Under the pieces are notes generated by a model. It saw only the letters and a program-made list of their open reading frames with translations. It was not told the DNA's origin and ran no database searches. From a virus, in the IMG/VR virus record IMGVR_UViG_3300046471_000128, positions 43,510 through 107,509 of that record: a stretch of DNA of 64,000 nucleotides; one strand, 5' to 3'. The position numbers were made by a program, and so were the translations under genes. Positions 17,524 to 42,019 of this stretch are shown piece by piece. The first letter of the stretch is position 1, and each line of letters starts with the position of its first letter.

Positions 17524-17976
17524 TTAATCAAAAACGATCTCTTCGAGAGAAATCTCCGGCTCGGGAAAAGAAAGCTCCGGGAGAGAAACCAGCTGCGGCT
17601 CGGGTAAGTTATGGCTTAGTTCCTGAGCCTCGACTTCCACAGTGACCTGCGGCTCGGGAAGAATTTCGGCCGAACCCACCGCGGCTCCCGGACCCGGTGC
17701 CGGCCGACCGGTGCCGCCGACCACGGCCCGTCCGAGATCCGTCGGCCGAACCAGACGTCGCAGGCGGCCGCGCCGGTGCTCGGCGAAGCTGCGGTCGATC
17801 AGACCGTGCCGCTCGATCGCGCGCAGGCTGAACTGCAGGCTCTCCTTGGTCGTCTTGTAGGTGAGGCGCTCAAGAAGCTGGTCGAGGTCAACCGCGGCGC
17901 CCTCAGAGGCCCCGGCGACGACCACCTTCATGATCTCGATCTGCTTGATGGTCAGATTCATCGCGGCCGGCAGCAC
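17524..17976 (-). CDS. Winged-helix (MarR-like) DNA-binding protein with acidic tail
   Basis: LTIKQIEIM...DLDQLLERL...SLQFSLRAIERHGLI...RRGR...PTDLGR. Confidence 0.7.
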   Translation of the reverse strand: MLPAAMNLTIKQIEIMKVVVAGASEGAAVDLDQLLERLTYKTTKESLQFSLRAIERHGLIDRSFAEHRRGRLRRLVRPTDLGRAVVGGTGRPAPGPGAAVGSAEILPEPQVTVEVEAQELSHNLPEPQLVSLPELSFPEPEISLEEIVFD

Positions 17977-18179
17977 CAGAAGTGATCGCCCTGCTCCGAG
18001 TGCGCGAGCGCCCGGCTGACCGTCGCGTATTCGTCCGCGCTGGGCGTGCGCACCCAGATCACGAAGTCATAGGCGCGGCCGCGGGCCTGGTCGGCCTCGT
18101 CGATCGATTCCATCGTCCAGGGCGAGAGGGCGCCCTTCGTGCCCACGATAGCGAGCGTCTTGGCGGTCGTCTTGATCAT
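17958..18179 (-). CDS. Hypothetical protein
   Basis: 73 aa ORF translationally coupled within the operon. Confidence 0.45.
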   Translation of the reverse strand: MIKTTAKTLAIVGTKGALSPWTMESIDEADQARGRAYDFVIWVRTPSADEYATVSRALAHSEQGDHFWCCRPR

Positions 18180-19165: not shown

Positions 19166-19491
19166 TCGAAATCCAGCCCGTCGGTGATGACGTAGTTGGC
19201 CGCGAGCCACTCCTTGATCTGCGCCTTGGTGCGTGCCCCGACGAACTGGCTCCTGACGACGGTGTTCTGGAGCACCCGCACGTTCGGCACGTTGCGCACG
19301 CCAAGCGTCTGCAGCTCGGCTTCCGAGAAGTCGGTCACGCAAAGCTCGTGGTAGCCGAAGCCATAGTCGGCCTTGAGCGCCTGGAGCGCGGGCTTCACCA
19401 CCTTGCAGGGGCCGCACCACGGCGCCGTGAAGATCACGACCTGCGGGCGGTGGGAGGAATCAACGAGTGCTGCGTCGTATTGCGGTTTCAT
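19162..19491 (-). CDS. Thioredoxin
   Basis: WCGPC active site, cis-Pro motif GVRNVP. Confidence 0.9.
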   Translation of the reverse strand: MKPQYDAALVDSSHRPQVVIFTAPWCGPCKVVKPALQALKADYGFGYHELCVTDFSEAELQTLGVRNVPNVRVLQNTVVRSQFVGARTKAQIKEWLAANYVITDGLDFE

Positions 19492-20207
19492 CAGGCCATC
19501 CGTTTCAAAAGTTCAAATGCTTCGTCGCGAGTCATCGCGCGATGCCCCTCTGCCGCGTCAGCAAGCTCGCGGTGGGCTTCGATGCGTAACTTCTCCCGGT
19601 AACGCTTCTCGATGTAGAGAGACGGCTGGAGGTCTTCCACGAGGTCGAGGTGGGTCGTTGCGACGATCACCGTCGCATTGACCTTGCGGGCGGTCTTCTG
19701 CAGCGCGAACGCGATCACCTTGGCGGCGGTCCGGTCAAGCACCGCCATGAACTCGTCGGCGACCCAGACGTCGGCCTGGCTCTCGATGGCTTTGGCGAGC
19801 TTGAAGCGGTAGCGCTGGCCGTCAGAGAGCTCGCCGGGCTTACGAATGAAGAGGTAGGCGTCGTTGAGGCCGGCGATCGACAGGAGGCGAATCGCGTCGT
19901 TGGTCGAGGTGCCGATCTGGTCGATCAGCGGCAGGTCGGGGTCGAGCGCCACCTCGTCGAGGTTGGCGACCTTCTGCCCTTCGGCAGCCATCTGGTGCGC
20001 GAGCTCGCGCAGGAGCAGCGACTTGCCCGAGCCCGACTGGCCGGTGATGTAGACGACATCGCCCCGCACCACGTCGAGGTCGAGCTTGTCGAAGATCACG
20101 AATTCCTTGTCGTCCAGGCCCAGGCCGAACGCTTCAGCGACTTCGACGACGCGCTGGCTGCGGGCCACGCGCGTGTGGAATCGCTTGTCGATGGTGTAGA
20201 TGCTCAT
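19491..20207 (-). CDS. Stand-alone ABC-type ATPase with no permease
   Basis: GQSGSGKS, signature LSDGQ, Walker B VADE, H-loop ATTH. Confidence 0.9.
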   Translation of the reverse strand: MSIYTIDKRFHTRVARSQRVVEVAEAFGLGLDDKEFVIFDKLDLDVVRGDVVYITGQSGSGKSLLLRELAHQMAAEGQKVANLDEVALDPDLPLIDQIGTSTNDAIRLLSIAGLNDAYLFIRKPGELSDGQRYRFKLAKAIESQADVWVADEFMAVLDRTAAKVIAFALQKTARKVNATVIVATTHLDLVEDLQPSLYIEKRYREKLRIEAHRELADAAEGHRAMTRDEAFELLKRMA

Positions 20208-20572
20208 GCTGGGTATGTCGGGTAGTGGCTATTGAGGCGGGAGAACCAGTCCCAGTAGCCGAGGTTGTCTTGCCAGAAGGCGCACAGGCCGTTTGCCGTG
20301 AGCGTGGTGAAGTCCTCTTCCGTGCTGGAGTTCTCCAGCCCGTAGACCCAATGGATCGCGTGCAGGCACTCGTGCAGGAAGGTGTTCGCGAGCTTCTGGG
20401 GCGTCATGCCGGGCTGCAGTCGGATGCGCTGGCCGATCGTGTTGCAGTGGCCGAACTCACGGTTGCCCTCGGCGTCGTGCTGGCTCATCAGCTCCACGAC
20501 GAACCAGTAGTTGCCTACGCGCACCGCGCGGGGCATGTCCTTGTAAGGATCAAAAACGGCGATATCAGTCAC
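20204..20572 (-). CDS. HExxH zinc metallopeptidase-like protein
   Basis: TFLHECLHAI...EE motif. Confidence 0.65.
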   Translation of the reverse strand: MTDIAVFDPYKDMPRAVRVGNYWFVVELMSQHDAEGNREFGHCNTIGQRIRLQPGMTPQKLANTFLHECLHAIHWVYGLENSSTEEDFTTLTANGLCAFWQDNLGYWDWFSRLNSHYPTYPA

Positions 20573-20579
20573 GGGTAAC

Positions 20580-21221
20580 TTATTCCAAGGTTTGGAGGAA
20601 GGTGGACAGCGCGTCGGCGCCGGCAAGCCCGGTGACAGCCTGGGCGCGCGCCATGAAGCGCACGATGTGGATCTCGTCGGCGCCTGAGACGTCCTTGAAG
20701 CCGAACACCTTCGCGAGCGGCACGCGGCGCGCGCTCACCTCGTCGGCTTTGGCGTGCGCGGCCTCTTCCTGCATCTCGACGGCGACCGCGACGTCCGGCA
20801 CGAAGGCCGCGTCGTTCAGCTCGCCGAGGTCGGCCATCGAGAACTCGAGCTCCTTCACATCGAAAATGCCGCTCAGCAGGCCCTCAATGCCCTCGATCTC
20901 GTCGCGGAACATCATCGTGTCGATGCCGCCCTCGTTCGTGCGGTTGTCCGCCAGGCGCAGCGCCCGCTTCTGCTCATCGGTCAGGCCCGACAGCACGACC
21001 ACCGGCACTTCGGTGATTGAGAGCTTGATCGCCGCCAGGCGCCGGCCGTGGCCGGCGATGATCTCGTTGTTCTCATCGATCACGATCGGCTGGGTCCAGC
21101 CGAACTGCTGGATCGACTCGACGATCTTGGCGACCTGCGCGTCGTCGTGTTTCTTGACGTTCTTCGCGTAGGGCACGAGCGCGGCGACGGCGCGTCGCTC
21201 TTCGGTGCGGGCGGGATTCAT
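20580..21221 (-). CDS. ParB/Srx-domain protein 1
   Basis: LVPY.KN...H...SI..FGWTQPI...IIAGHGR..AA...LADN. Confidence 0.85.
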   Translation of the reverse strand: MNPARTEERRAVAALVPYAKNVKKHDDAQVAKIVESIQQFGWTQPIVIDENNEIIAGHGRRLAAIKLSITEVPVVVLSGLTDEQKRALRLADNRTNEGGIDTMMFRDEIEGIEGLLSGIFDVKELEFSMADLGELNDAAFVPDVAVAVEMQEEAAHAKADEVSARRVPLAKVFGFKDVSGADEIHIVRFMARAQAVTGLAGADALSTFLQTLE

Positions 21222-21436
21222 GCGGCCTCCGGGTGTTCGAAGCGCACGCACGCGGCGGTCTTGTGGACCTTGAACCCGCCGATCCCGCAGCGCAGGTTCG
21301 TCTGGTTGACGTAGACGCTGCCACCGAAGGCGGCCTTAACCGTCACTTCCTCGAACTCGAAATGGCGGCAGCTGCCGCAGTTGTTCGGCGCGCGGCTGTA
21401 GTGCTGCGCGGCCTTGGCTTCGCTTTGTTTGCTCAT
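21218..21436 (-). CDS. Small Cys-rich protein
   Basis: CGSCRHF...RC.IGGF.V...A.C. Confidence 0.55.
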   Translation of the reverse strand: MSKQSEAKAAQHYSRAPNNCGSCRHFEFEEVTVKAAFGGSVYVNQTNLRCGIGGFKVHKTAACVRFEHPEAA

Positions 21437-21708
21437 GCTGCTTGCAGCTCCTTCTCTTCAATGGCTGGCTCAAGTGCGTCAGGAATGCACTCGGCAGGCA
21501 GCGGGGTTTGGATCTTGCGGAAAAACCGCACGACGGCGGCCTTGCGCTGGGAAAGCTTGTCGTCGAGGTCGTCATCCGGCTCGTATTCGTCGCCGTTGTC
21601 GCAGTTCTCGCAGATGGCTGGCTCCCGGTTGTGGAAGTAGCAGCTCTGGCACTCTGGGAAAAGGAACTCGGAGCGCGGGATGCGCGCAAAACCCGTCGGG
21701 CGTGTCAT
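21433..21708 (-). CDS. Small Zn-finger-like protein
   Basis: CQSC...CENC, start MTRPTG at 21708. Confidence 0.55.
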   Translation of the reverse strand: MTRPTGFARIPRSEFLFPECQSCYFHNREPAICENCDNGDEYEPDDDLDDKLSQRKAAVVRFFRKIQTPLPAECIPDALEPAIEEKELQAA

Positions 21709-22067
21709 ACCGTGATCCAGTCGTCCGCGAGCATGTCGAGGTTGGTCGGAAACCAGCCCGACCAGCTGGCGCCGTCCGTCTCGCACTTGAACAACCCATC
21801 GACGATCGCCAGTGTGTAGGTGCGCGTGAAGCCCGTTTTCCAGCCCACGCGAGAGACGCGCAGGCCCGTCTTCAATGCCTCCAGCGCCATGCCGAAGCTC
21901 ATGCCGACGGCCGGCCGGTAGGCTTTCTCGAAGACCGCCTTGGGTGACCAGCTGATGTAGCCGTCCTCGTAGCGAACTGAGTAGCCCTCTTCGGCGTTGC
22001 CCGTGACCGGGTTGATCGCGGCGAGGGGCTCCGCGTGGATGATCTTGCTGCCGATGTATCGGTTCAT
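21705..22067 (-). CDS. DUF2829 / Tad2-like cyclic-nucleotide sponge with N-terminal extension
   Basis: MSFGMALEALKTGLRVSRVGW...W.P...DMLADDW is the DUF2829 signature. Confidence 0.75.
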   Translation of the reverse strand: MNRYIGSKIIHAEPLAAINPVTGNAEEGYSVRYEDGYISWSPKAVFEKAYRPAVGMSFGMALEALKTGLRVSRVGWKTGFTRTYTLAIVDGLFKCETDGASWSGWFPTNLDMLADDWITV

Positions 22068-22726
22068 TTGTATGCCTTCATGAGATCGACGAAGGCGTTG
22101 CCCGCGTTCGTCATGGAGTCTTCGGTGGTGAACCCTTGCTCGCGCTGGCGGCGCTCGATCGCGGAGGTGATCCAGGCGACGTCTTCGACCGGCACCTTGA
22201 AGCGCATCACCTGATGGGTGGCGCCCAGGCCCGCGCCGGACAGATCAGGCATTTCGGTCTGATCCAGCTGGTCAAGCTCGTCGATGTCTATACTTGACGC
22301 TGCCAGAATCGTTTCGAGTTCGGTGTCGGTGTAAGGCATGAACAGGGCGATGTCTTCGGTGCCGAGTTCCTTGAGCAAGCGCGAGAGCGCAAGCGTGTCG
22401 TCTTCGCCGTAGCGGCCGTTGTCGACCAGGCCGATCTCCTTCGCCGTGGTGTCCGAGATCGGTCCCACATCGACGATGGGCACTTCGGTGTAGCCAAGGC
22501 GCTGCGCGGCTTCCCAGCGGTGCTGACCGCCGAGGATCTGGTAACCGGTGCCGTCTGGGTGCGGGCGCACGACGATCGGCTTGTAAACGCCGAACCGCTT
22601 GATACTGATGTCCAACTTGTCCTCATTTTCGGGAGCGACATAGTTGGTGTTCCAAGGGTTCGGGCGCAGACTTGCAACTGACACCTTGCCCTGTGCGGGG
22701 TAGATCGAGGATGGCGAAGCAGCCAT
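22064..22726 (-). CDS. ParB/Srx-domain protein 2
   Basis: LRPNPWNTN...SIKRFG..KPIVVR...ILGGQHRWEAA...DN. Confidence 0.85.
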   Translation of the reverse strand: MAASPSSIYPAQGKVSVASLRPNPWNTNYVAPENEDKLDISIKRFGVYKPIVVRPHPDGTGYQILGGQHRWEAAQRLGYTEVPIVDVGPISDTTAKEIGLVDNGRYGEDDTLALSRLLKELGTEDIALFMPYTDTELETILAASSIDIDELDQLDQTEMPDLSGAGLGATHQVMRFKVPVEDVAWITSAIERRQREQGFTTEDSMTNAGNAFVDLMKAYK

Positions 22727-24521: not shown

Positions 24522-25304
24522 TTAAGTCCAGTTTCGTTCCAGTGCCAACGCTTCTCCTTGCTTCGTCAAACCGAGTGTATCCACCGCATAACCCGGCAAT
24601 ACCGTAACGTAGCTAGCCAGCTTGTCGACAGAGTGAGCAAATCGCAGCTTCGACACCTTCAAGTCGCGCATAAGATCGACCGAAGCGATCGCTCCATAAT
24701 GGGCAAGCAGCCTGATCATTTTCTCCTCGACCGGTGAAAATGCATGCTCGGCAGGAGCTGCTGGCGTTGCGCGAGCGGCCGGCTCGGCGAAGTCAGTTTG
24801 CGCGGGAGCGGGCTGAACCTTATCGAACGCCTTCGCAACGCCGCCCTCCAGTCCCGTCCACCCTCGCTCGAAGCGTTCTCGCAACGCCGACTCCTTTTCT
24901 GGGGCTTCGTTGGCAGTGTTGATCGCTATGACCAGGGCGAGAAAGTCCTCTTTCTCGAACACCGTAGCTTGGAACTGTGCAAGCGGGGAGGGCAATCTGC
25001 TCTTGTCGACGCGAAGGCACAGTGGATGGATCGCCGCGTTAGCCATTGACTTTGAGAGCGCGCCCGCTTCGAAATGAAGCCACGGTTCCTGCATGTTGTC
25101 CTGCGTGACGCATATGATGCCGACGTTCGTGCTGTCGAGTTCCTGCGCGAGTTGCAGCCCCCACCGCCGCCCCTTCTGAAGATCGGCATCAGACACCCAA
25201 ACGTCGGCCGTGCGAAGCGTCATTTCGAGAAAGTGCTTCAGCTCCACAGCGATCGTTTTCGCCGGCTCTTTGGACCAGCTTACGAATATCTTCATGGACC
25301 CCAT
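24522..25304 (-). CDS. TIR-domain protein with C-terminal winged helix
   Basis: IFVSWS...VWVS..DL.KG..W...L..EL...WLHFEAGA (catalytic Glu present); lower GC than neighbours. Confidence 0.85.
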   Translation of the reverse strand: MGSMKIFVSWSKEPAKTIAVELKHFLEMTLRTADVWVSDADLQKGRRWGLQLAQELDSTNVGIICVTQDNMQEPWLHFEAGALSKSMANAAIHPLCLRVDKSRLPSPLAQFQATVFEKEDFLALVIAINTANEAPEKESALRERFERGWTGLEGGVAKAFDKVQPAPAQTDFAEPAARATPAAPAEHAFSPVEEKMIRLLAHYGAIASVDLMRDLKVSKLRFAHSVDKLASYVTVLPGYAVDTLGLTKQGEALALERNWT

Positions 25305-25757: not shown

Positions 25758-26042
25758 ATGACCGATCGCCTTCGCACCGCCATCGCCCTCACCGACACCT
25801 CGCGGGAGCGCCTCGCACGGATGGCCGAGGTCGCCGGGCTCTCCCAGAACGCCACTCTCGAGTCGATTATCCTCGGCATCACCGACGACGAACTGCGCAC
25901 GATTGCCGCCCGGGGCAACGTCGTGGTGAAGGCAGAGAAACGGGAGCGTCTCGCCCAGAAGCGGGCCATTCGCGAGAAGCTCGCCGCGCTCACGCCGGCC
26001 GAGCAGGAGCGTCTTTTCAAACTAGCCAAGGACGAAAAATGA
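25758..26042 (+). CDS. Putative ribbon-helix-helix DNA-binding protein
   Basis: RTAIALTDTSRERLARMAEVAGLSQNATLE; TATAAT at 25718 upstream. Confidence 0.5.
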   Translation: MTDRLRTAIALTDTSRERLARMAEVAGLSQNATLESIILGITDDELRTIAARGNVVVKAEKRERLAQKRAIREKLAALTPAEQERLFKLAKDEK

Positions 26043-26542
26043 GCCTTTATTCCGAGGTGATGGACTACGCGAAGGCCAACCTGCCCGAGATCGCGGGTGA
26101 CATCGACGTCACCAGTTACATCGTCGCGGTGGCCGAGCTGATGCGCCGGATCAACTACTGCCCGAACGCCGCGGACCTGGGCGACACGCACAAGTCTTGG
26201 GCCTGGCAGTTGAAGGAGCCGATCAAAGACCCGAAGGCGGCGCGGCGCACGTATCGGCGGTTCGCCGAGGCGATGAACGCGGACATGGTGAAAGCGCTCA
26301 AGCACACGCTGGAGCTGCGCGCGGCGAAGAACGCGGGCCTGCCGCCGCCGGCACCGCCTGTCCGGTTGGGTGAGGATGGCGACACCGCGCTGCCAGTGCT
26401 AAGCCCGGCAGGGGCGCTCGAACACACGGTGGATGACGGGCCGGTGATGGTGGTCGCGCCCGTCGATGAGGCGATTGAGGCGATCGTGGGCAGGTTGCTC
26501 GACGAGCAGCCGCTCGACAATGAGGCGTGGGCCGCGTGGTGA
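26039..26542 (+). CDS. Hypothetical protein (ends EAWAAW)
   Basis: ATGA overlap with the upstream gene. Confidence 0.6.
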   Translation: MSLYSEVMDYAKANLPEIAGDIDVTSYIVAVAELMRRINYCPNAADLGDTHKSWAWQLKEPIKDPKAARRTYRRFAEAMNADMVKALKHTLELRAAKNAGLPPPAPPVRLGEDGDTALPVLSPAGALEHTVDDGPVMVVAPVDEAIEAIVGRLLDEQPLDNEAWAAW

Positions 26543-26578
26543 GATAGAATCGCGCACCAATCATCGGGGGAATCAAAA

Positions 26579-26893
26579 ATGAAGAAATGGGGAATGATGC
26601 TGTTGCTGGCGGTCGCAGGTAGCGCGCATGCGTATTCAGAAGGGTCGGCGGAGGAGCTCACGAAGCGCGTTCGCGTGTGCAAGGTCTACGCCGACCTCGG
26701 CGATCTGTATTACCGGATGGCGCTGCAGGGGAAGAAGCCGACCGCGCAGAAGGACGACTGGGCCGAGCCGATGCGCCAGCACATCGAGGATGAGATTTTC
26801 GGGAACGTTGCCTCGTATGACCGGCAGTCGGCAGCAGAGATGGCAGGCACTTACTGCCTTGACAACATCGTGCGCCTGTCGCACGGCGCTTGA
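26579..26893 (+). CDS. Secreted protein
   Basis: Signal peptide MKKWGMMLLLAVAGSAHA, two Cys. Confidence 0.65.
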   Translation: MKKWGMMLLLAVAGSAHAYSEGSAEELTKRVRVCKVYADLGDLYYRMALQGKKPTAQKDDWAEPMRQHIEDEIFGNVASYDRQSAAEMAGTYCLDNIVRLSHGA

Positions 26894-27262
26894 TCGACGG
26901 GCACGGACGGTAGCTGCGGGGCGCGCCAGCGCCCCTAGCGCCGTCTGCCTGGGCCCGCAGGGCCGCGAGGGTGCGATTCCCCATGTGGACACACTCAAAG
27001 CCCCACAGCCCCTTCCCCACGTCCCACCTTCCACTTTCCCGCTGCCCCACTCCCCGCTTTGCCACGGCCCTATAAGGATCTCGGATTCGCCGAGGCCCGG
27101 CTGTATAAGGATCGGGTCTGGATCGGAAAAAAATTTCCAACGAGGCCCCACCACTATTGCGCGCCGTTCTAAGACCACCGACGTGCCGCATGGTCGGTGA
27201 TCAGTGGGCGGGGCGGGGTCGGTGCGTCCGCCCATCGTTAGATGGGCGAACTATGACGATAG

Positions 27263-27451
27263 TTAGGTTAGCGTATCAATCGACAGACTGAACCGGTCGA
27301 TTGCATGCGCGTGCATATCGCTCTGTTCGTAAGCGCGCGAATCGTAGCGCGTGGGTTGAAACACTGCATCGAATGCATCGAAGGTTTCACTGTGCGCACG
27401 TTCCCCGTGCTGGGCAATGCGGGCAAAATGAGCGCTCTGCAAGGTTTTCAT
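27263..27451 (-). CDS. Small hypothetical protein in the KCCD-free zone
   Basis: 62 aa ORF, co-oriented with neighbours. Confidence 0.35.
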   Translation of the reverse strand: MKTLQSAHFARIAQHGERAHSETFDAFDAVFQPTRYDSRAYEQSDMHAHAIDRFSLSIDTLT

Positions 27452-27515
27452 GGTCTGGTAGGTCGTCAGGTAGCAGGTAGAGAACGCGGGCGCTTTGTGC
27501 GCCCGCTATGCGCGT

Positions 27516-27698
27516 TTAGCGCGACGCGTTCAAGTGAGCACGGGCACGCGCGCGACGCATGCGGGCACGCGTTGCCCGTGTGCGGTGCGGTGCGTTATTG
27601 ATGGGTTCGGGCAATGCGTGAAAAGCGAGCACGACAGCAAGCGCGACCAGCAAGACAGACAGCAAGGGTAAAAGGTATTGATTCATCGTTAGCATCAA
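27516..27698 (-). CDS. Small membrane peptide in the KCCD-free zone
   Basis: Hydrophobic helix followed by Arg-rich tail. Confidence 0.4.
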   Translation of the reverse strand: MMLTMNQYLLPLLSVLLVALAVVLAFHALPEPINNAPHRTRATRARMRRARARAHLNASR

Positions 27699-27752
27699 TC
27701 GAAGGGTTAGAAACCCGGGCGCACCGTGCGCCCGGTAAAAGTCACAGGTTCC

Positions 27753-28424
27753 TTATTCTTTCTTCGCGCCCTTTACGAGTGAGAGGGTATCGCTAGAAGC
27801 TTGTTCTACCATCTTTGCAATTGCAGCGACAAAGGGAGATTTAGCATTCACTTCGAGCACTGCGCTTTTACCCTTAACCTTAACCATTTGACCCATATTG
27901 AGATACTTACAGAAACCATTCACACCGAACGAGCGTGAAACCTTGGTTTCTTCGCTAGTAACACCGACGCCCGGTATCACGCGACGCAGTTTCGAAACCA
28001 GCGACAGGTCTTTAACGATATCGCTAGTCGATTCGTCTCCCTTGCCCGTGTTAGCAAAGTAAAGCGCTTCGCGCGACACTGCGCCCGCATGCACTGCGCT
28101 AAGCAGGGAAAGCGCGGTAACACCGTCAAGCTTGCTGTAGTCTTTCGCATGCAGACAAGCGAAAAATTCTGATACGCGCTTGCAAGCTTTCACGCCCATG
28201 TTATCTGCAATGGTTGCAAGAAACGTTGTTTCGTCAATGCGCGCTTTTTTCAGCATGCCCGAAGCGAAAACACAAAGCGCGTCATCCCAATATGCGAGAG
28301 CGGTTTTGATATCGTCTTGCAAGTGAGCGCTGCCCGTCTTTGTGTTGTAACGATCGTTTGCGCGGTTGAATGCGATTGAAACATTTTCGAGCGTGAAAAT
28401 CGTTTCTTTAACTTGTGCGTTCAT
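27753..28424 (-). CDS. Candidate immediate-early protein, 223 aa (start MNAQVK)
   Basis: AAAGGT SD, canonical sigma70 promoter, downstream hairpin 27715-27736, unusual codon usage. Confidence 0.8.
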   Translation of the reverse strand: MNAQVKETIFTLENVSIAFNRANDRYNTKTGSAHLQDDIKTALAYWDDALCVFASGMLKKARIDETTFLATIADNMGVKACKRVSEFFACLHAKDYSKLDGVTALSLLSAVHAGAVSREALYFANTGKGDESTSDIVKDLSLVSKLRRVIPGVGVTSEETKVSRSFGVNGFCKYLNMGQMVKVKGKSAVLEVNAKSPFVAAIAKMVEQASSDTLSLVKGAKKE

Positions 28425-28484
28425 TTTGATTACCTTTGATTGAGTGTTGGTCTGTTTGCCCGGTCTCGCTGAACCGGTAGAGAA

Positions 28485-28513
28485 ATAGTAACCGCACACC
28501 TAGCCCGGTGCAA
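28485..28513 (-). promoter_or_regulatory. sigma70-type promoter TTGCAC-N17-TACTAT
   Basis: Read on - strand about 60 bp upstream of the ATG at 28424. Confidence 0.7.
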
Positions 28514-28750
28514 TAAGTATGCGAAAAAAAACGTATGGCTTTTCTATTCGCGTTGTTTTTCAGAGGAGTGCTTGAAAGGTGTTTTTGACTGTGCTATTTG
28601 CGCGGGCGCACCTGCATGCATGCTCAATAGGGAGCGCGCATATCGAATGCTTAGATAGGGATACGATGTATCGTGGATCTGATTAATCGATCATAGGGAG
28701 TTCGAACTATGTGATTGTTCGTGGACCCGATTAACCGGTCGTTAGCGGAG

Positions 28751-28817
28751 CGACGCTTCGTGGCCCGACGCTTCGTGGCCCGATGCTTCGTGGAGCGATG
28801 ATTCGTGGAACCGATGA
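28751..28817 (+). repeat. 15-bp tandem array CGAYGMTTCGTGGMS (about 4.5 units; degenerate copies near 28664 and 28712)
   Basis: cgacgcttcgtggcc twice, cgatgcttcgtggag, cgatgattcgtggaac, cgatga. Confidence 0.9.
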
Positions 28818-29119
28818 CCACGGCGCCCAGCGGGCGCCGGTGCCCGAACCGCGCCATCCCTGCCCTGCCCGCAGCCGGTGCCGGTTTCTGCCAATCCGCC
28901 CTTACCTGGCCCGGGTTTTTCCAAAAATTGCCACGGATTTGAACGGAACCCGGGCGCCCGCCCCACAGCAAGCCACGGCACGCCATCCGAGCGCTTACGG
29001 GCACCCAGCCACGGCAGTGTAGAACGAAAAAAGGGCTGGCACCCGAAGGTGGCAGCCCAAAAGTCTTACGTATCACAGTAGGACTCACTCAGGTAAATCG
29101 AGGCGAAGCATACAGCAGG

Positions 29120-29287
29120 TCAGTCCCAGCGTGCGCGCTCTTCAACAAACGGACGACGGCGGCGCGTGGTGAGCGTGCGGAGTTCCCGCTGCTCTTCGAA
29201 TTCTTGGAAAAGCTCCAGCTCCGTGAGCTCCGCATCGAGGTGGTCATCGGACAGCAACGATTCGACATGGATCTGACGGACTTGCAT
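29120..29287 (-). CDS. Small protein, 55 aa (MQVRQIH...)
   Basis: AGGAGAG SD; terminator at 29027-29060 downstream. Confidence 0.6.
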   Translation of the reverse strand: MQVRQIHVESLLSDDHLDAELTELELFQEFEEQRELRTLTTRRRRPFVEERARWD

Positions 29288-29447
29288 GGTTCTCTCCTGG
29301 GTAGGTCGGTGCAGCGCTCGTTGCGCTGCGACAGAAGAGAGTTTGACGGGCAAGTCTTGGATCACGCGTGCTGCGCTGCAGGCTCTTTATAGCCCCGCCA
29401 CGGCCCCTGCAAGCAGCAGGTGCGCGTGAGCACACCCGCTGGCCCTG

Positions 29448-29612
29448 CTAGGGCGACCGATGGCGTCGACGCGCTTCGACACTGCGGCGGTGCTTTGCAC
29501 GGCTCAGACGACAGACGAATGAATCAAGGAACAACACGAGCAGGAAGATCAAGATAAACAGCGCACCGTGGATCGGAATCAGCCACAGCCCGCCTTCATA
29601 GAGCAGCTTCAT
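29448..29612 (-). CDS. Small membrane protein, 54 aa (below ORF track cutoff)
   Basis: MKLLYEGGLWLIPIHGALFILIFLLVLFL...; AGGGA SD; promoter-like element at 29642. Confidence 0.5.
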   Translation of the reverse strand: MKLLYEGGLWLIPIHGALFILIFLLVLFLDSFVCRLSRAKHRRSVEARRRHRSP

Positions 29613-29682
29613 GGCTGGTCCCTGTGAGTGGTCAAGTGATTATCGTATTGACGCACTCACGGACCCGGGCGCTAGGAAGTCA

Positions 29683-30072
29683 TCAGGCCAGGTGGATCAG
29701 GTGTCCAAGGGCCGGCATCAGCTTGGCGACGTGGTGCGAGAGGCTCATCACGGAGAACCCGTCATCGAAGCCGATCACCGCAAGGGCCAGCGCACCGAAG
29801 GCGGCGCCCCGCTCGATCAGCTTGCCGCCGCGGCCCGCCATCCACTGCAGCGCCGCGTTCGAGACGGTCGGCTGCTTGCGCTCCGGCGCATACAGATTAA
29901 CGTCTACCACCACCTCTTCAATGCGCGTCGCCGAGATCACCTCGATGCCATCGCGTTTATATGCCTGCACCATTGCCGCTACTACCCCTTCGATGGCCGC
30001 ATTGTCGGAGCTCGTCGACACCGTAAATAGCTCGCCTTCCTGGTCTACACACTCGAATGTGATCCTGCTCAT
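29683..30072 (-). CDS. Hypothetical protein with C-terminal hydrophobic segment
   Basis: 129 aa ORF with SD. Confidence 0.6.
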   Translation of the reverse strand: MSRITFECVDQEGELFTVSTSSDNAAIEGVVAAMVQAYKRDGIEVISATRIEEVVVDVNLYAPERKQPTVSNAALQWMAGRGGKLIERGAAFGALALAVIGFDDGFSVMSLSHHVAKLMPALGHLIHLA

Positions 30073-34087: not shown

Positions 34088-34603
34088 TTATTCGGGCAGG
34101 AGCTCGTCGCTCAGCATTTCGAGCAGCGTCTCGCTGTCATGGCACACCAGCGTGGTGATGTCGTCATCGACCGGCACGCCCGCGTCGCGCAGAATCTTGA
34201 GCACGGTTTGCGCGCGCGCAACGACGTCGGCATCGACCTCATCGTCATCGACGTGTCCGTCTTGCGTCTCGACCAGGCGACGCGCAAAGCACACGGCCCA
34301 CTCTTCGGGCGTGGCGCAGGTGTATTCCCACGGTGACGCACCTGCGGCGCCCATATCGCCCGACAGGTCGAAAACCCACTTGTGGTCAGGACCGCGCCCG
34401 ATGATGACCTTCGCGGCTGCGTAGACCATCGAGACGGACTCGACGCAGATCGCGTGTTTGTGGAACTGGTCGATCACGAACCCGTAGGCGTCGAGATACA
34501 GGTTGTCGAGCGTCTGGTTGGACTCTTGCACGAGCTGCTCGGCGGAGGGCTTGAACTCGGACGTGTCGACAGTCGCGAGGATTTCTTCGTAGGTGATGGA
34601 CAT
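34088..34603 (-). CDS. Acidic hypothetical early protein
   Basis: ORF directly downstream of class-II element 34638. Confidence 0.7.
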   Translation of the reverse strand: MSITYEEILATVDTSEFKPSAEQLVQESNQTLDNLYLDAYGFVIDQFHKHAICVESVSMVYAAAKVIIGRGPDHKWVFDLSGDMGAAGASPWEYTCATPEEWAVCFARRLVETQDGHVDDDEVDADVVARAQTVLKILRDAGVPVDDDITTLVCHDSETLLEMLSDELLPE

Positions 34604-34678
34604 GGTGTGTCTGGGTGGTTGTGGTTGCGATGAAGTCATTCTCCCGACCCGGGTGTGGCCCGGGCCCGGATCGGTTGA

Positions 34679-35071
34679 TCAGTGGGCGGACGTAAGCATT
34701 TCGGGAATGACCATCGGCAAGCTGGTCGAGCACGGCTCGTCGAGATTCAGAATGTCGAACGCTTCGGCGACAGGGCGGCCCGGGTGCGCGTAGGCGTTCA
34801 GCGTCGCGGTCACGCACGCTTCAAGGTGGTCGGCGTCACGGTAGTGCGGCGACACGCCCGCGTCGAAGGATTCGACGATCACCGTGTTCCCGTGCAGGAT
34901 CACCTTACCGACGCACGGGATCGGCCCGGTGTGGTCAGGATGCTCGAACTTCACGACCAGGACGACACCACCGTCGGCACGGGTGCGCAGACGGTAAAGG
35001 CGCGTGTGGTGCACGTTGCGGTAGGCGTGAGCATGGGCACGGCGCTGCTCGGGATTCAGGTTGAGGCTCAT
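34679..35071 (-). CDS. Hypothetical early protein (start MSLNLN)
   Basis: ORF downstream of class-II element 35103. Confidence 0.65.
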   Translation of the reverse strand: MSLNLNPEQRRAHAHAYRNVHHTRLYRLRTRADGGVVLVVKFEHPDHTGPIPCVGKVILHGNTVIVESFDAGVSPHYRDADHLEACVTATLNAYAHPGRPVAEAFDILNLDEPCSTSLPMVIPEMLTSAH

Positions 35072-35112
35072 GATGTTTCTCATGTGTCGTTTCGATAGAC
35101 ACAGTTTCCCGA

Positions 35113-35959
35113 TCACGCACTGGCGCGCTGTCGGATCGTTTGTGCGGTGTGCGGCACCGGGTAGCGGGCGACCAGCCACTCGGTGAACTGCTGTTGTTCG
35201 GCGAACCCCATCTCTGCTCGGACCGTTGCGTGCACATCGCACCAGAGCTTCGCCTGGTGGCCGATCCAGTAGACATAGGGCCGCGTGTGGTGCGTGCCGT
35301 AGCGCGCCATGTCCTTCGCAAGCTGCTCCGCCGGCGACCCTGCCCCGTGCGCGATACAGTAGGCGGCGTAGCGCGGCGTCGCGCCCTTGAACGGGCCGCG
35401 CGCGATCACCAGCAGACCTCGATCTGTTCCACCTGCTCGGGGTCGATGAGGACATGGCGCCCGGTGGGTGCGAGATCGGCATCAGGGCGGGGCTCCCACA
35501 GCTCCAGCTCCAGCAGCAGCCCGCCTTTGTGCACGCGCATTTCGCCGCCGTAGACCGAGCCGTGCACCTGCCGACCCGAGCGCAGCCACAGGTTCACGGT
35601 GTAGCCGTTCCCGTCGTTCTTCTCGTCGTTCGCGTCAGCGAGCGCGTAGGCAACGATCGTGCGCCCGCTCATCGTTGGCTATCCTTCACCGCTGCGTCGA
35701 GCTCGCGCACGGCGGCCGCCAGCCCGCTGCTGCCCTCTTCTATCGCGCCCACGACCTTAATCGCGGCGGCGCGCAGGTTGTCCAGTTTGTCGCCCTGCTT
35801 GTTCATCTTCAGGACCGCATCGAACGGTGCTTCGGAAAGCTGCGCTTGGATGCCCTGATTGTTGAACTCGTTCGAGAGGAACGAGAACATGTCGAATTCC
35901 CGGTCCTGCCCGTAGTTCGTGTCGGCGGGGCGAATGAGGATGGTGTGAATCTTGGGCAT
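35113..35959 (-). CDS. Three coupled small hypothetical genes (35669-35959, 35406-35672, 35113-35409)
   Basis: ATGA/GTGA overlaps; class-II element 35989 upstream. Confidence 0.65.
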
Positions 35960-36049: not shown

Positions 36050-36562
36050 TTATTGCGCGCCCCCGAGCCCGATGGCGATCGAGATACGCTCGTCGGACAC
36101 CAGCGCGCGAATCCGCTTGGCGACCATATCGGGCGTGACGAGCGGAATGCCGTCGTCAAACATGACATCTGGCTCGTCATCGTATGATTCCGCGTTGAAC
36201 AGGTATTGAGCCCATGAGTCATTCAGACCGAAGAAGTTCTCGATGGCGGCCCAGCCCTCACGGCCCTCGTAAAATGGCTGCGCGTGCCGCGCGCCCCAGA
36301 CCGGAACGACCAGCTTGAGCCCTTGGGATTGGAACTCGGGCATCAAGGCGGCGTGCCCGCACGCGCACGCGGCGGCACCACACTGCACCTTGACGGGATC
36401 GACCACGATGGACTTGGCACCACCGAGCAGCTGGACAACTTCTCCCGTGGAGGGCAGATCCGCAGGCGCTTTCAACCAGTGGTCGAGGTGGAATGCGGCG
36501 GGCGCTGCGAATGTCTGCTGCTCAAGCACAGTGGCGAGCAGCTCAAGGCGTTCGATGTTCAT
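36050..36562 (-). CDS. Hypothetical protein of the CGxxAC family (paralog of 48061-48468)
   Basis: LDHW...CGAAACACG...P.FQ.QGL...FFG...LF...KRIR. Confidence 0.7.
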   Translation of the reverse strand: MNIERLELLATVLEQQTFAAPAAFHLDHWLKAPADLPSTGEVVQLLGGAKSIVVDPVKVQCGAAACACGHAALMPEFQSQGLKLVVPVWGARHAQPFYEGREGWAAIENFFGLNDSWAQYLFNAESYDDEPDVMFDDGIPLVTPDMVAKRIRALVSDERISIAIGLGGAQ

Positions 36563-39910: not shown

Positions 39911-40996
39911 TCATTCAGCCGCCGTCGTTTCTTCCGCCGTCACTTCTTCGACGACCGGCTCTTCAACCGTCGGCTCTTCAACCGTCGGCTCTTCAACCGT
40001 CGGCTCGACGGTCGGTTCTTCCGCAACCGGTTCTTCGGGCAGCGGTTCGCTTGCCGGGTTCATCGCTTGCTGCGCCATCATGAGGAACAGCGAGTTCGGG
40101 TTGGGAACAAATTCGCCCTTGCCCGTCTGGACGATCATCTTCGTCTTCTCCATCACCGTCACCGTGTTGCGGCCCATCGCGCGCGCAGCGCTCGGGCTAT
40201 ACGGCTTGCTCAGCAGGTTCTTGTGGAGGTTCCCGTTGTCGCCCGTCTGGATCTTCCCGTCGGCGGCGAGCACGTCGAGGGCACGCTTGAAAATCTCGTT
40301 CGGCTTGTTCGTTTTGCCCGACAACCAGTCCATCAGGAGCGAGGCGCGATTCTTGACCTTGACGGACATCGCGTCGATCACCGCGAGCGTCTCGTCCTGC
40401 TTCGCTTTCAGCGCATCGCCCTCCAGCCCAGCGTCAGCGATCTCCAGCACGAGGTAGTCACCGAGCGACGCACCCAGGCGCGCTACGATGCGATCCGTCT
40501 TGTTCTGGTAGTGCGTGCGCGGGGCGCGGACCTTCTTCGCTGCTGCGGCGGTGGGCTCTGCTGCGCTCATTTCGGTCGCAAGCGCTTCTTCGGCGAGCAG
40601 ACGCTCTTTCTCGGCTTCTTCGTCCGTGACGCCCTCGTGGGCAGGCGCATCAGCGGGCACCAGCGCGTAGGCTTCTTGCACTTCGATGTTGGCGAGCGCA
40701 GCTTCGAGCGCTTCCCCGTGCGCTTCTTCGGACGGGAGTGCGGACTCGGCTGCGACTTCGAGCAACGGCGGCACGTCGAGAACTTCGACCGTCCCGGAGT
40801 CGAGCAGGACTTCTTCGCTCGATTCGACCAGTGCGGCGACCGACGCTTCGAACGTCTCGACCGGCGCTGCGCCCATGTTCGGCTCGCCCAGCACATCGAG
40901 GAGCGCTGCGAGTTCGGGGTCCATCGGGGCTGCTTCGCTCGCGCCCAGCATGTTGATGTTGAGGACGGCTGCGACTGCGTTTTTCTTGGCGTTCAT
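39911..40996 (-). CDS. 361-aa early protein with acidic N-terminal half, folded C-domain and EEPTV-repeat tail (start MNAKKN)
   Basis: CAGGAGAG SD, three upstream promoter-like elements, hairpin 39882-39901; 15-bp coding repeat near 39956-40005. Confidence 0.8.
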   Translation of the reverse strand: MNAKKNAVAAVLNINMLGASEAAPMDPELAALLDVLGEPNMGAAPVETFEASVAALVESSEEVLLDSGTVEVLDVPPLLEVAAESALPSEEAHGEALEAALANIEVQEAYALVPADAPAHEGVTDEEAEKERLLAEEALATEMSAAEPTAAAAKKVRAPRTHYQNKTDRIVARLGASLGDYLVLEIADAGLEGDALKAKQDETLAVIDAMSVKVKNRASLLMDWLSGKTNKPNEIFKRALDVLAADGKIQTGDNGNLHKNLLSKPYSPSAARAMGRNTVTVMEKTKMIVQTGKGEFVPNPNSLFLMMAQQAMNPASEPLPEEPVAEEPTVEPTVEEPTVEEPTVEEPVVEEVTAEETTAAE

Positions 40997-41294
40997 GATG
41001 CTCTCCTGAGTGAGATTGGGTAACGCGTTCATCGCGTCAGATTCAATTTTGTCGATCAGGTAGAGGCGCGTATCGCATGAGTCAGGATCGTTTCTCTGCC
41101 CGGTCTGGGTGTCGTGCACTGCATCGACTAGAGAAATTCTAGGGAGCGGGTTGTGGCGTAAATCCTGTGCGTTTGGATATGTGCTTGCTAGAAAGAAAGG
41201 TGCGCGCGCCCGCGCGAATAGCACCGGGCTTCTGGCTCGGGCCCGGAAAATAGAAAGGGCGCCCGAAGGCGCCCTGTCATGGGGTTGGAGGCTA

Positions 41295-42019
41295 TCACCA
41301 GCTACCCGCCAATTCGCTGCCAATCTCCGCGATCCGTGCCCGCGACTTGCGGTCGTCCACTTCCTCACTTGAGTTCTGGTAAAGGGCTTCGGCGACGTTC
41401 GAACGGATCACGGCCGTCACCCCGGGCATCTCCGCGCACACGAAGCGCTCGGCGGCGTAGTGACTCAGTTCTCGCTCCTCTGCGGCGAGCCATGCGAAGA
41501 AGGCGTCCCGCATCGTCGCTGCCAATTCATCGCACTCCGTCATCACCAGCTCCCCGCCAGGTCTGCAATGTCCTCGTCCATCCCGCGTGTGTCGGGCACA
41601 TCGGGCGGGGGTGGCACGAGAATGTTGCCCTTCTCGACGAACTGGCGCCCGCTCTCACCCCTGCTTGAGGGCAGCCATTCGCAGTCGGCGTAGCGCACGA
41701 GGATGTCCTCGTAGGCGTCGATCGCCTCCTGCTCGGTGCGAAACTCGCGCGTCGCCTGCGGATCGGGTGAGCGCCGCGGTGCGTCGAGCGGACGGCCCTC
41801 GCCATCGGTCGTGACGATGTTCTCGACGTCCAGACGGTAGAGCTTCCAGTGCTGCTTCGGAATCGTTTTGGCGTTCTTCTGGAAGCCAAGCCACTCGCAG
41901 GTGACGCGGATCTTTTCGTTCTCGAACTCCCGGAAGAACCGGTAGGCGTGATTTTTTTGCAGCGCTACCCACGCTGCCTGCGTGATCGAGCCGCCATCTC
42001 TGTTGACGAATGCGAGCAT
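41295..42019 (-). CDS. Two coupled hypothetical genes (41543-42019, 41295-41546), both ending LAGSW
   Basis: SD before 42019, 4-nt overlap, terminator 41255-41275. Confidence 0.65.

What the first reader, a model, noticed from the sequence alone, without database searches (positions are those of the whole stretch)
27231..28535. A 1.3-kb zone purged of the word KCCD on both strands, around a sigma70-driven gene
Seen, by reading line by line: between 27231 and 28535 there is no GCCA, GCCG, GCCT, TCCA or TCCG and none of their complements. The only KCCD is one TCCT at 27750, just past a stop codon. GCC occurs only as GCCC, GGC only as GGGC and GGA only as GGGA, while ACC and GGT are freely used. 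GGC Gly codons in 27753-28424 are therefore always preceded by G (ACG GGC, ATG GGC, TCG GGC). A rough uniform expectation is 12/256 x 1300, about 60 hits. On the + (template) strand the depletion extends to 28834. The zone covers a canonical promoter, the 223-aa gene and two small downstream ORFs, and ends abruptly near 27230. Inference: KCCD is chemically modified (or nicked) in virion DNA in a way that blocks host RNA polymerase, so the first-expressed operon must be free of it. The alternative is avoidance of a host restriction motif in first-injected DNA.
Basis: partly seen in the sequence, partly recalled or inferred. Interest (0 to 1): 0.92.

Follow-up and report, generated by a model that had tools for sequence, protein, structure and literature searches.

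The report
Phage operon purged of one word
A 1.3-kb regulatory operon of a 107-kb phage-plasmid contains none of the twelve tetranucleotides KCCD/HGGM (rhizobial relatives lack every CC and GG there), and this conserved, selected purge points to an undescribed factor that reads the word and obstructs transcription.

Summary
Window 27231-28535 has 1 KCCD/HGGM where about 83 are expected. ACCN, CCCN, GCCC and TCCC occur at normal frequency. Codon shuffles and a 2nd-order Markov model do not explain the gap.

The purge recurs around the orthologous gene in 9 metagenomic loci (28-76% protein identity). It also recurs in a Cupriavidus metallidurans plasmid. In Rhizobium phage RHph_N1_10 and a Shinella plasmid the zone lacks all CC/GG, and the encoded protein family has almost no Gly, Pro or Trp. 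The scan's first-stage notes record the same purge on other DNA.

The zone gene encodes an orphan protein with a probable winged-helix C-terminal domain. The element is a phage-plasmid (Rep3, ParA, Pol III alpha, RNR).

Neighbouring early transcription units lack the same six words on the template strand only. Word arrays upstream of the promoter point one way in every locus. The word therefore acts with transcriptional polarity.

The same word across hosts argues against host restriction. No methyltransferase or DpdA (TGT-like) gene was found.

Best reading (about 0.35): a lineage-encoded mark, nick or polar reader at the word blocks RNA polymerase, and early units are written clean.

The parts
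27231..28535 (.). Zone free of KCCD/HGGM on both strands (one exception, TCCT at 27750, which is polymorphic)
   Evidence: The C27751A variant in co-occurring strains removes the exception.
27753..28424 (-). Zone gene P0001, 223 aa. Orphan family with an N-terminal helical domain and a probable winged-helix C-terminal domain (residues about 95-213). Nearly invariant motifs TGKGDExTSD and TQxSRSFGxNGF.
   Evidence: No Pfam or PHROG hit. Homologues. Alignments. Model pLDDT 91.7. MarR/PadR/ArsR-like matches at Z 6-7.
28432..28438 (-). Shine-Dalgarno AAAGGTAA. It uses AGGT, which is not an HGGM word, instead of AGGA. Coordinates are approximate.
   Evidence: Sequence. Conserved in relatives. Rhizobial relatives use AGAGAG with no GG.
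28485..28513 (-). Sigma-70-like promoter TTGCAC-N17-TACTAT with a T-rich upstream tract
   Evidence: Read. Conserved as TTGCAC/TTGCAG-N17-TACTAT in L001, L002 and L008. Not called by the consensus scan, 7 of 12 matches.
27716..27734 (-). GC hairpin CGGGCGC-loop-GCGCCCG just after the stop codon, built only from allowed words. Terminator-like, with a weak T tract.
   Evidence: D5/I5
27487..27505 (-). Second copy of the same hairpin
   Evidence: D5/I5
27263..27451 (-). Small ORF P0003 (62 aa), conserved at 30-48% identity in three relatives. Part of the purged unit.
28674..28835 (-). Array of direct repeats. Six 15-bp units start at 28746-28821, plus two more at 28674 and 28722. Each carries KCCA on the minus (sense) strand only, and the + strand stays KCCD-free.
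   Evidence: (D1-D3). One-orientation arrays occur upstream of the promoter in all 9 loci.
27065..27113 (+). Two tandem boxes CGGCYNTATAAGGATC beyond the 3' end of the zone, pointing into it. Candidate antisense promoters or protein-binding sites. Equivalent boxes in the same orientation occur in L010, L007 and the Cupriavidus plasmid.
   Evidence: (D11)
27061..27068 (.). First copy of the palindrome GCCRYGGC (two inverted words). 11 of the 37 KCCRYGGM matches are intergenic, all between 27061 and 39856; a further GCCACGGC (31772) lies inside a called ORF (copies at 27061, 28930, 28972, 29008, 29397, 31202, 31212, 31746, 31772, 32337, 33679, 39856).
   Evidence: 11 of 37 genome copies are intergenic against 9% intergenic DNA.
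34257..35174 (+). Second purge on one strand only. There is no KCCD on the + (template) strand for 919 nt across two early units. Sense HGGM is 0 against about 35 expected, and sense KCCD is normal.
   Evidence: Orthologues in L005 show 0-1 against 20-24.
39911..41368 (-). 485-aa early gene with template-strand KCCD at 23 against 73 expected (z = -9.5). The sense strand is normal.

Best explanation
Shown:
- The operon is kept free of a CC-core word by purifying selection across a whole lineage of roughly 105-117-kb phage-plasmids.
- The word acts with transcriptional polarity. Early units lack it on the template strand. The P0001 operon lacks it on both strands. Arrays of the word in one orientation border the operon.

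Inferred:
- Each KCCD in the template strand is an obstacle to RNA polymerase.
- The obstacle is set by a factor encoded by the element lineage. Most likely it is a strand-specific mark or nick placed on DNA before packaging.
- Only template-clean units can then be read from incoming virion DNA. Word-rich middle and late genes become readable after replication.
- The P0001 operon is clean on both strands because it is probably read in both directions: the sense mRNA, plus an antisense transcript from the inward-pointing TATAAGG boxes.
- The one-orientation arrays would then work as polar stops.
- P0001, a probable winged-helix DNA binder, would be the first regulator made.
For: Word-specific purge not explained by codon or Markov models.

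Conservation:
- 10 hits against 469 expected over nine homologous zones down to 28% protein identity.
- Also in the C. metallidurans ZM02 plasmid. Its 196-aa gene matches the family profile with hhalign probability 98.4%.
- In Rhizobium phage RHph_N1_10 and a Shinella plasmid all CC/GG are missing (8 against 175, and 12 against 134). The protein there has the same fold as P0001, judged by shared BFVD hits.

Ongoing selection:
- 35 natural variants create no word, where 16.7% of random substitutions would.
- Three variants that would create a word alone come with compensating neighbours.
- The lone TCCT is lost in variants.

Polarity:
- The same six words are missing from the template strand only in early units. 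This is conserved in L005 and in Cupriavidus.
- Arrays upstream of the promoter have one orientation in all loci.

Lineage-intrinsic: the word is the same in elements from different metagenomes and from a cultured host. Genome-wide density is as expected.

Precedents for short CC-core readers and for clean first-expressed DNA: Nt.CviPII nicks ^CCD (PMC3017599). T5-like phages resist nucleases only if the first-step-transfer region lacks sites (PMC10644984).
Against: - No writer gene was identified. There is no C5, N4/N6 methyltransferase or TGT homologue.
- Nmad5 is absent from the rhizobial elements that do have a purge.
- The conserved ParB-ABC operon is also present in a Methylobacterium plasmid with no purge in the 70 kb scanned.
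- Antisense transcription of the zone is inferred from box orientation only. No RNA data are available.
- Most known phage DNA hypermodifications do not block host RNA polymerase (my own knowledge).
- Several promoters with a strong TATAAT drive word-rich genes.
- Sequence alone cannot separate three formulations: template-strand KCCD, non-template HGGM, and HGGM in the RNA.
Confidence: 0.35

Rival explanations
1. A lineage-encoded stoichiometric reader, possibly the zone protein itself, binds the word as a polar DNA roadblock, on the exposed single strand of the transcription bubble, or as HGGM in nascent RNA. It stops or destroys transcripts that carry the word, giving host shut-off or prophage silencing. 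Its own operon and a few early units are written to be immune.
For: - P0001 has a probable winged-helix domain.
- It has a nearly invariant recognition-helix-like motif TQxSRS across a family that keeps the same avoided word.
- A single winged helix reads about 4 bp (my own knowledge).
- The palindrome GCCRYGGC, which is two inverted words, clusters in intergenic DNA around the zone.
- Word arrays lie next to its promoter.
- The most stringently purged unit is the one that encodes the protein.
- The word broadens to CC/GG where the protein has diverged beyond sequence recognition.
- The strand polarity fits RNA-level or single-strand reading.
Against: - A symmetric double-strand binder cannot give a one-strand purge.
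- A reader of a word that occurs 63 times per kb would also hit host DNA or RNA and the element's own late genes. That would be toxic in a lysogen.
- Per-site effects of a weak 4-bp site should be small, yet the purge is nearly absolute.
- The winged-helix assignment rests on Z 6-7 only.
Confidence: 0.25
2. The zone is an iteron-type replication module. P0001 would be a Rep-like initiator, for example for lytic replication as with P1 repL/oriL, with iterons and an AT-rich tract upstream. The word would be excluded for a replication reason, such as a priming or nicking site of the element's replisome.
For: - Six 15-bp direct repeats plus an AT-rich tract lie directly upstream of a winged-helix gene.
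- Weak fold hits to ORC/Cdc6 and RepL.
- The element has its own replisome genes.
Against: - The element already has a Rep3 initiator with ParA elsewhere.
- P0001 matches no Rep family.
- One-strand purges follow transcription units and promoter elements.
- No known origin requires absence of a tetranucleotide.
Confidence: 0.1
3. Avoidance of a host defence that acts at the word (a restriction or nicking enzyme, or a DNA- or RNA-modifying toxin). The counter-defence or first-entering operon survives long enough to act, as in the T5 first-step-transfer region.
For: - T5 precedent (PMC10644984).
- The neighbourhood holds counter-defence-like genes: a Tad2-like domain and a TIR protein.
- In several close relatives GATC is also scarce in the zone.
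Against: - The same degenerate word is purged in elements from Cupriavidus and from several unrelated metagenomes.
- No host system is known to read a word that occurs every 16 bp.
- The rest of the genome is not depleted.
- DarT1, the one candidate checked, has no consensus motif (PMC11543638).
- Cleavage elsewhere in the genome would still kill the phage, unless DNA entry is stepwise. That is untested.
Confidence: 0.1
4. A compositional artefact: a lower-GC, horizontally acquired gene with unusual codon usage happens to lack these words.
For: Zone GC is 0.51-0.56 against 0.62, and GC3 is 0.51 against about 0.85.
Against: - Codon-preserving shuffles and a 2nd-order Markov model reject it.
- Another low-GC kilobase of the genome has 42 hits.
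- Non-coding parts of the zone are purged too.
- The purge is conserved at 28% protein identity.
- ACCN and CCCN are at normal frequency.
Confidence: 0.01

Closest known systems
Site-free first-step-transfer (FST) region of T5-like phages
   Same: A first-expressed region must lack the recognition sites of a DNA-level agent while the rest of the genome keeps them (PMC10644984).
   Different: In T5 the sites are ordinary 5-13-bp host restriction sites that differ from host to host, and the region is the terminal repeat. Here the word is a degenerate 4-mer (or a dinucleotide), the same across hosts, with strand polarity. The position relative to the genome ends is unknown.
Strand bias of EcoP15I sites in phage T7 (cited within PMC10644984; details from my own knowledge)
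   Same: One-orientation placement of an asymmetric word as a selected trait.
   Different: T7 shows genome-wide orientation bias of a 6-bp site against a Type III enzyme. Here the one-strand absence follows the transcription direction of single early units.
Nt.CviPII / M.CviPII of chlorella virus NYs-1
   Same: A virus-encoded enzyme pair that reads the very short word CCD (D = A, G, T) and acts on one strand (PMC3017599).
   Different: ACCD is not avoided here, so the word is KCCD and not CCD. No C5 methyltransferase is encoded. No homologue was sought by sequence.
SspABCD single-strand phosphorothioation at CpsCA, and Dnd systems (my own knowledge, not checked here)
   Same: A strand-specific backbone mark at a CC step. 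These systems include ParB-like and ABC/SMC-type ATPase parts, as does the operon next to terS here.
   Different: ACCA and CCCA are not avoided. No cysteine desulfurase or PAPS-reductase-like gene was looked for or seen. A Methylobacterium relative has the ParB-ABC operon but no purge.
Motif-less transcripts that resist sequence-specific RNases (ACA-less mRNAs and MazF; T4 RegB cutting GGAG; my own knowledge)
   Same: Exclusion of a 3-4-nt word from particular transcripts. This fits the one-strand purges.
   Different: The zone is purged on both strands and in non-transcribed promoter DNA. No such RNase is known for HGGM.
MarR/PadR/ArsR-type winged-helix regulators
   Same: The C-terminal half of P0001 superposes on these folds (Z 6-7, rmsd about 3 A, 80-90 residues).
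   Different: No Pfam membership. There is an extra N-terminal helical domain. Z lies in the range the tool calls common.

Membership tests
Restriction-site avoidance against host R-M | The avoided word is a plausible R-M site and differs with the host's enzymes. | tested here: not met
   The same degenerate 4-mer is purged in 9 metagenomic loci and a Cupriavidus plasmid. The word occurs 63 times per kb.
Restriction-site avoidance against host R-M | Avoidance extends over the genome or all exposed DNA. | tested here: not met
   Genome-wide density equals the compositional expectation. Only the zone, and one strand of some early units, is purged.
T5-type first-step-transfer region | Lies at the DNA end that enters first (terminal repeat). 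| not testable with these tools
   The record is a circularly closed metagenome assembly with a 127-bp overlap. Only contigs of the runs are held, not reads.
T5-type first-step-transfer region | Free of the sites of the agent it counters, and read by the unmodified host polymerase. | tested here: inconclusive
   It is free of the word. The promoter is sigma-70-like and conserved, but matches only 7 of 12 consensus positions and was not called by the scan.
MarR/PadR-like winged-helix DNA-binding proteins | Winged helix-turn-helix fold. | tested here: inconclusive
   The top 50 VIA matches are almost all wHTH regulators at Z 5.7-7.2 over residues 95-213. Foldseek against the PDB found nothing.
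MarR/PadR-like winged-helix DNA-binding proteins | Sequence membership (Pfam model). | tested here: not met
   No Pfam family at E <= 0.01. No PHROG. No PDB sequence relative.
Iteron-type plasmid initiators (Rep3/RepA) | Rep_3 WH1/WH2 domains. | tested here: not met
   P0001 has no Rep family hit. The element's Rep3 protein is a different gene at genome 15317-16060.
Iteron-type plasmid initiators (Rep3/RepA) | Direct repeats and an AT-rich tract upstream of the gene. | tested here: met
   Six 15-bp repeats at 28746-28835 and a T-rich tract before the promoter.
M6-type pyrimidine hypermodification cassette | Nmad5, a DNA kinase and a pyrimidine hydroxymethylase together. | tested here: inconclusive
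   Nmad5 (E 2.5e-21), a P-loop kinase-like protein, a MazG-like protein and a ThyX-like protein lie at 50291-53425. aGPT-Pplase, radical-SAM and PLP parts named for phage SN1 (PMC9476957) were not seen among the proteins scanned.
M6-type pyrimidine hypermodification cassette | Co-occurs with the purge, as required if it writes the mark. | tested here: not met
   Nmad5 is present in this genome, in L002's record and in the Cupriavidus plasmid. It is absent from the Shinella plasmid and phage RHph_N1_10, which do have a purge.
CviPII-type nicking and modification pair | The word is CCD, with a cognate C5 methyltransferase. | tested here: not met
   ACCD occurs at the expected frequency. No DNA_methylase or N6_N4_Mtase match in six frames.
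7-deazaguanine (Dpd) DNA modification | A DpdA/TGT-like transglycosylase. | tested here: not met
   No PF01702 match in the genome. The control genomes all matched.

The most novel reading that the evidence does not exclude
In this phage-plasmid lineage, gene timing is hard-coded by the placement of a 2-4-nt word. Packaged DNA would carry a strand-specific mark or nick at K-CC-D (every CC in the rhizobial clade) that stops RNA polymerase on the template strand. Only word-free units would be readable on arrival. One-orientation word arrays would act as polar terminators. Replication would erase the block for the late genes. The writer would be an undescribed enzyme, since no known methyltransferase or transglycosylase is encoded.
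Probability: 0.3. Interest if true: 0.95.

Novelty: categorically new. Interest (0 to 1): 0.9.

Why it matters
I know of no described case in which a gene-sized stretch excludes a word this short and this frequent.
- The purge is so complete that in one clade a 60%-GC phage has about 1 kb without a single CC or GG.
- There the encoded protein family has almost no glycine, proline or tryptophan, and the ribosome-binding site is rewritten.
- Such a cost implies that every single occurrence matters. That points to an agent acting at each word. The strand polarity ties the agent to transcription.

Any of the likely answers would be a new principle of phage gene control or host takeover: a new DNA mark, a nicking system, or a polar reader of DNA or RNA.

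The agent's specificity can already be read from sequence. Cultured systems exist for testing: Rhizobium phage RHph_N1_10 and the C. metallidurans ZM02 plasmid. The purge also gives a simple computational signature for finding further cases in other phages.

Tried and rejected
Context came from the search for related loci instead.
- tblastn of P0001 against the phage and plasmid collections: no match. The genome-contig scan found no relative.
- Alignment A1 was too diverse for a locus scan. P0022 gave nothing in viral contigs.
- Pfam, PHROGs, PDB sequence search and Foldseek against the PDB gave no family for P0001. The ESM Atlas gave only unnamed viral clusters and weak DUF3102/DUF6192 leads.
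- hhalign between the beta-clade family (A1) and the rhizobial family (A3) found nothing (single sequences). The link rests on shared structural hits only.
- DarT1 was considered as a guanine-directed reader and dropped, since no consensus motif is known for it.
- A CRISPR PAM (CC or NGG) was rejected for the beta clade because ACC and CCC are not avoided.
- Oxidation-prone GG steps were rejected because GGG is kept.
- DNA melting was rejected because GC and CG steps are at normal frequency.
- Rfam: no match in 26000-30000.
- No RNA holder is listed for the stretch, so expression and antisense transcription could not be examined.
- The runs are held as contigs, so genome ends and nicks cannot be read.
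- GNAT and thioredoxin assignments in the earlier notes for the operon at 17524-22726 were not reproduced by Pfam. I found ParB_N twice, ABC_tran, weak SprT-like and Tad2-like. PGAP does annotate a glutaredoxin in the Cupriavidus operon.
- GATC scarcity is not universal across zones.
- The motif ATCGNNNCCAC, shared by iterons and early promoter elements, is only modestly enriched: 11 against 3.1.
Full report
**1. The observation**

In window 27231-28535 the only match to [GT]CC[AGT] or its complement is TCCT at 27750. The window belongs to a single 107,509-bp contig closed by a 127-bp overlap. That contig carries 6,767 such words, or 63 per kb. The two gaps in the zone (786 and 523 nt) are followed by 191 nt as the next largest gap anywhere in the genome.

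I enumerated all IUPAC 4-mers. KCCD/HGGM is the description with the largest expected count (83) at one hit or fewer.

The NCCN table shows how sharp the cut is:
- GCCA, GCCG, GCCT, TCCA, TCCG and TCCT score 0, 0, 0, 0, 0 and 1 against 12.5, 31.8, 11.4, 8.7, 8.4 and 9.2 expected.
- ACCN, CCCN, GCCC and TCCC are at expectation.

- Shuffling synonymous codons within the gene, which keeps the protein and its codon usage, gives 19.9 +/- 3.2 words (minimum 9 in 5000 shuffles) against 0 observed.
- A 2nd-order Markov chain trained on the zone itself gives 17.6 +/- 4.3 against 1 observed.

**2. The purge is conserved and under current selection**

P0001 (27753-28424, minus strand, 223 aa) has no Pfam or PHROG family. 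It does have homologues on contigs of about 105 kb.

Every locus I could fetch shows the same purge around the gene:
- L002, L003, L005 and L008: 0 hits over 1.0-1.6 kb.
- L010, L011 and L007 (28-38% protein identity): 0-2 hits over 0.7-1.1 kb.
- L001 and L004: 7 and 6 hits where about 60 and 44 are expected.
- In the fully purged loci KCCD is again the top-ranked absent motif.
- Pooled over nine zones there are 10 words against 469 expected.

The plasmid of the cultured strain Cupriavidus metallidurans ZM02 is syntenic. It has an 836-bp KCCD-free gap over a 196-aa gene that matches the family profile (hhalign probability 98.4%).

In Rhizobium phage RHph_N1_10 and a Shinella zoogloeoides plasmid the equivalent zone lacks essentially all CC and GG:
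- 8 against 175 expected, and 12 against 134.
- GC and CG dinucleotides are at normal frequency.
- The ribosome-binding site reads AGAGAG.

The rhizobial zone protein family contains almost no Gly, Pro or Trp. It is not alignable to P0001 by sequence. Its model and the P0001 model do have the same two significant hits in the viral structure library, A0A7S5RLS2 and A0A6J7WLV9. They also share the same order of secondary-structure elements.

A Methylobacterium oryzae relative shows no purge in the 70 kb scanned.

Contigs of three rhizosphere metagenomes carry co-occurring variants of the zone:
- 35 listed substitutions create no word, although 16.7% of random substitutions would.
- Three substitutions that would create a word on their own are accompanied by compensating neighbours.
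- The single TCCT is removed by C27751A in the variants.

First-stage notes of this scan report the same purge in another genome.

**3. What the element and the gene are**

The genome encodes:
- Rep3 and ParA, DNA polymerase III alpha fused to a UDG domain, RecA, a gp32-like protein and CobS/CobT-like proteins.
- Ribonucleotide reductase, a ThyX-like protein, a ligase, RNase H and an SbcCD-like pair.
- Terminase, portal and capsid proteins.

It is therefore a temperate phage-plasmid. I note from my own knowledge that this gene set resembles the SSU5/pHCM2 type.

The P0001 model is confident (pLDDT 91.7). Residues 95-213 superpose on MarR/PadR/ArsR-type winged-helix domains at Z 6-7. The hit list is consistent, but the Z range is one the tool calls common, so the assignment is probable rather than proven.

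Other features of the operon:
- The family keeps a nearly invariant TQxSRSFGxNGF segment in the putative recognition helix.
- The promoter TTGCAC-N17-TACTAT is conserved, but it is only 7 of 12 to consensus and was not called by the scan.
- The Shine-Dalgarno is AAAGGTAA.
- The small ORF 27263-27451 is conserved. The ORF at 27516-27686 is not.

**4. The word acts with strand polarity**

Outside the zone, several minus-strand genes between 31 and 41 kb lack KCCD on the + (template) strand while keeping it on the sense strand:

| Gene | Template strand | Sense strand or expectation |
|---|---|---|
| 34088-34639 | 1 | 19 on the sense strand |
| 36050-36562 | 5 | 24 on the sense strand |
| 39911-41368 | 23 | 73 expected, z = -9.5 |

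The + strand has a 919-nt KCCD-free run at 34257-35174. All large one-strand gaps lie in this early region.

Within that run the same six words are at zero on one strand. Sense HGGM is 0 against about 35 expected, while CGGG, GGGC, NGGT and all sense KCCD words are present. This is the same word-specific effect, not a G/C skew.

The asymmetry is conserved in the orthologues of L005 (0-1 against 20-24) and in early genes of the Cupriavidus plasmid.

Many of these units follow a conserved element: a hairpin, then TCGGGAnAATGA...ATCGCAACCAC, about 45 nt before the start codon.

Upstream of the P0001 promoter, every locus has an array whose words all sit on the sense strand. Here that is six 15-bp repeats starting at 28746-28821.

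Downstream, two TATAAGG boxes point into the zone, and relatives have equivalents.

The palindrome GCCRYGGC, two inverted words, clusters in intergenic DNA between 27061 and 39856.

A symmetric double-strand binder cannot produce a one-strand purge. The agent must therefore act on the template strand, on the exposed non-template strand, on the RNA, or as a polar roadblock.

**5. Who reads the word**

Host restriction is unlikely. The word is the same across elements from different samples and a cultured host. It occurs every 16 bp. It is not avoided genome-wide.

I found no known writer:
- No C5 or N4/N6 methyltransferase and no TGT/DpdA.
- An Nmad5, kinase-like, MazG-like and ThyX-like cluster exists, and Nmad5 belongs to thymidine-hypermodification cassettes (PMC9476957). 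It is absent from the rhizobial elements that also have a purge.
- The ParB/ParB/SprT-like/ABC operon next to the terminase genes is conserved throughout the lineage. It is also present in the Methylobacterium element without a purge.

- A lineage-encoded mark or nick at the word on packaged DNA obstructs RNA polymerase on the template strand.
- Only clean units are readable on arrival.
- The P0001 operon is clean on both strands because it is read both ways.

The main rival (0.25) is a stoichiometric polar reader, possibly P0001 itself, acting on DNA or nascent RNA, with the purge as self-immunity. A replication-module reading and a host-defence reading get about 0.1 each. Composition alone is refuted.

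**6. Comparison with known systems**

- The logic resembles the site-free first-step-transfer region of T5-like phages (PMC10644984) and the T7 strand bias of EcoP15I sites.
- The closest known reader of such a word is the chlorella-virus nickase Nt.CviPII (^CCD; PMC3017599).
- The CC-step phosphorothioation of Ssp systems and motif-less transcripts that resist MazF or RegB are further analogies, from my own knowledge.
- None fits. ACCD is not avoided, no cognate methyltransferase is present, the word is constant across hosts, and the effect is polar.
- I found no description of a gene-scale purge of a 2-4-nt word in the literature searches made.

**7. Verdict**

The mechanism is unresolved, but it is constrained to a word-specific, strand-polar, lineage-intrinsic agent. 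Interest is high, and cultured systems exist for the decisive tests.

Noticed in passing
L018:23154-24403 (Rhizobium phage RHph_N1_10, MN988505.1) and L017:23862-24778 (Shinella plasmid NZ_CP132310.1): About 1 kb with virtually no CC or GG on either strand in 60%-GC genomes. The encoded 190-aa protein family has almost no Gly, Pro or Trp. The zone is flanked by dense G-run arrays (GGG every 7-9 nt, G-quadruplex-like) on one strand.
   Followed up: partly
window 12615, 49524, 53957, 62708 and genome 22715, 26100, 26860, 31470 (minus strand): At least 10 copies of a quasi-palindromic promoter or operator, ATAAGTNAC-N3-GTTACTATAAT, in front of replication, head and tail genes. It looks like a dispersed operator set of a master repressor, as in P1. 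The P0001 promoter carries a half-copy (GGTTACTAT).
   Followed up: partly
window 30755, 31580, 34638, 35103, 35989, 37898, 39576, 45085, 48546 (minus strand): A conserved element of about 24 nt, TCGGGAnAATGAnnTCATCGCAACCAC, preceded by a hairpin whose loop holds KCCA, about 45 nt before start codons of early genes. It may be a phage-specific promoter. The 15-bp iterons resemble its ATCGNNNCCAC part (11 matches against 3.1 expected).
   Followed up: partly
window 21705-22067 and 24522-25304: A Tad2-like (Thoeris anti-defence 2) domain protein and a TIR-domain protein lie between the packaging genes and the zone. This suggests a counter-defence neighbourhood.
   Followed up: no
genome 4098-7442 (L012): DNA polymerase III alpha with a C-terminal uracil-DNA-glycosylase domain fused to it (1114 aa).
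   Followed up: no
window 50291-53425: A cluster of Nmad5, a P-loop kinase-like protein, a MazG-like protein and a divergent ThyX-like protein next to ribonucleotide reductase. It is a candidate pyrimidine-modification cassette. It is present in the beta-proteobacterial clade only.
   Followed up: partly
window 27231-28535 and orthologous zones: GATC is also scarce in the zones of the close relatives (0-1 each) and in L010, but not in L008, L011 or L007. GCCC/GGGC, GCGC, CGCG and TGCA are about 2-fold enriched as replacement words.
   Followed up: partly
L016 and L019 (Methylobacterium oryzae plasmid NZ_CP090351.1): A syntenic relative with the ParB-ABC-helicase block but no word-free zone in the 70 kb scanned.
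   Followed up: partly
window 28104-28107, 28154-28155, 28183-28184: Co-occurring strains in rhizosphere metagenomes differ by paired neighbouring substitutions.
   Followed up: yes
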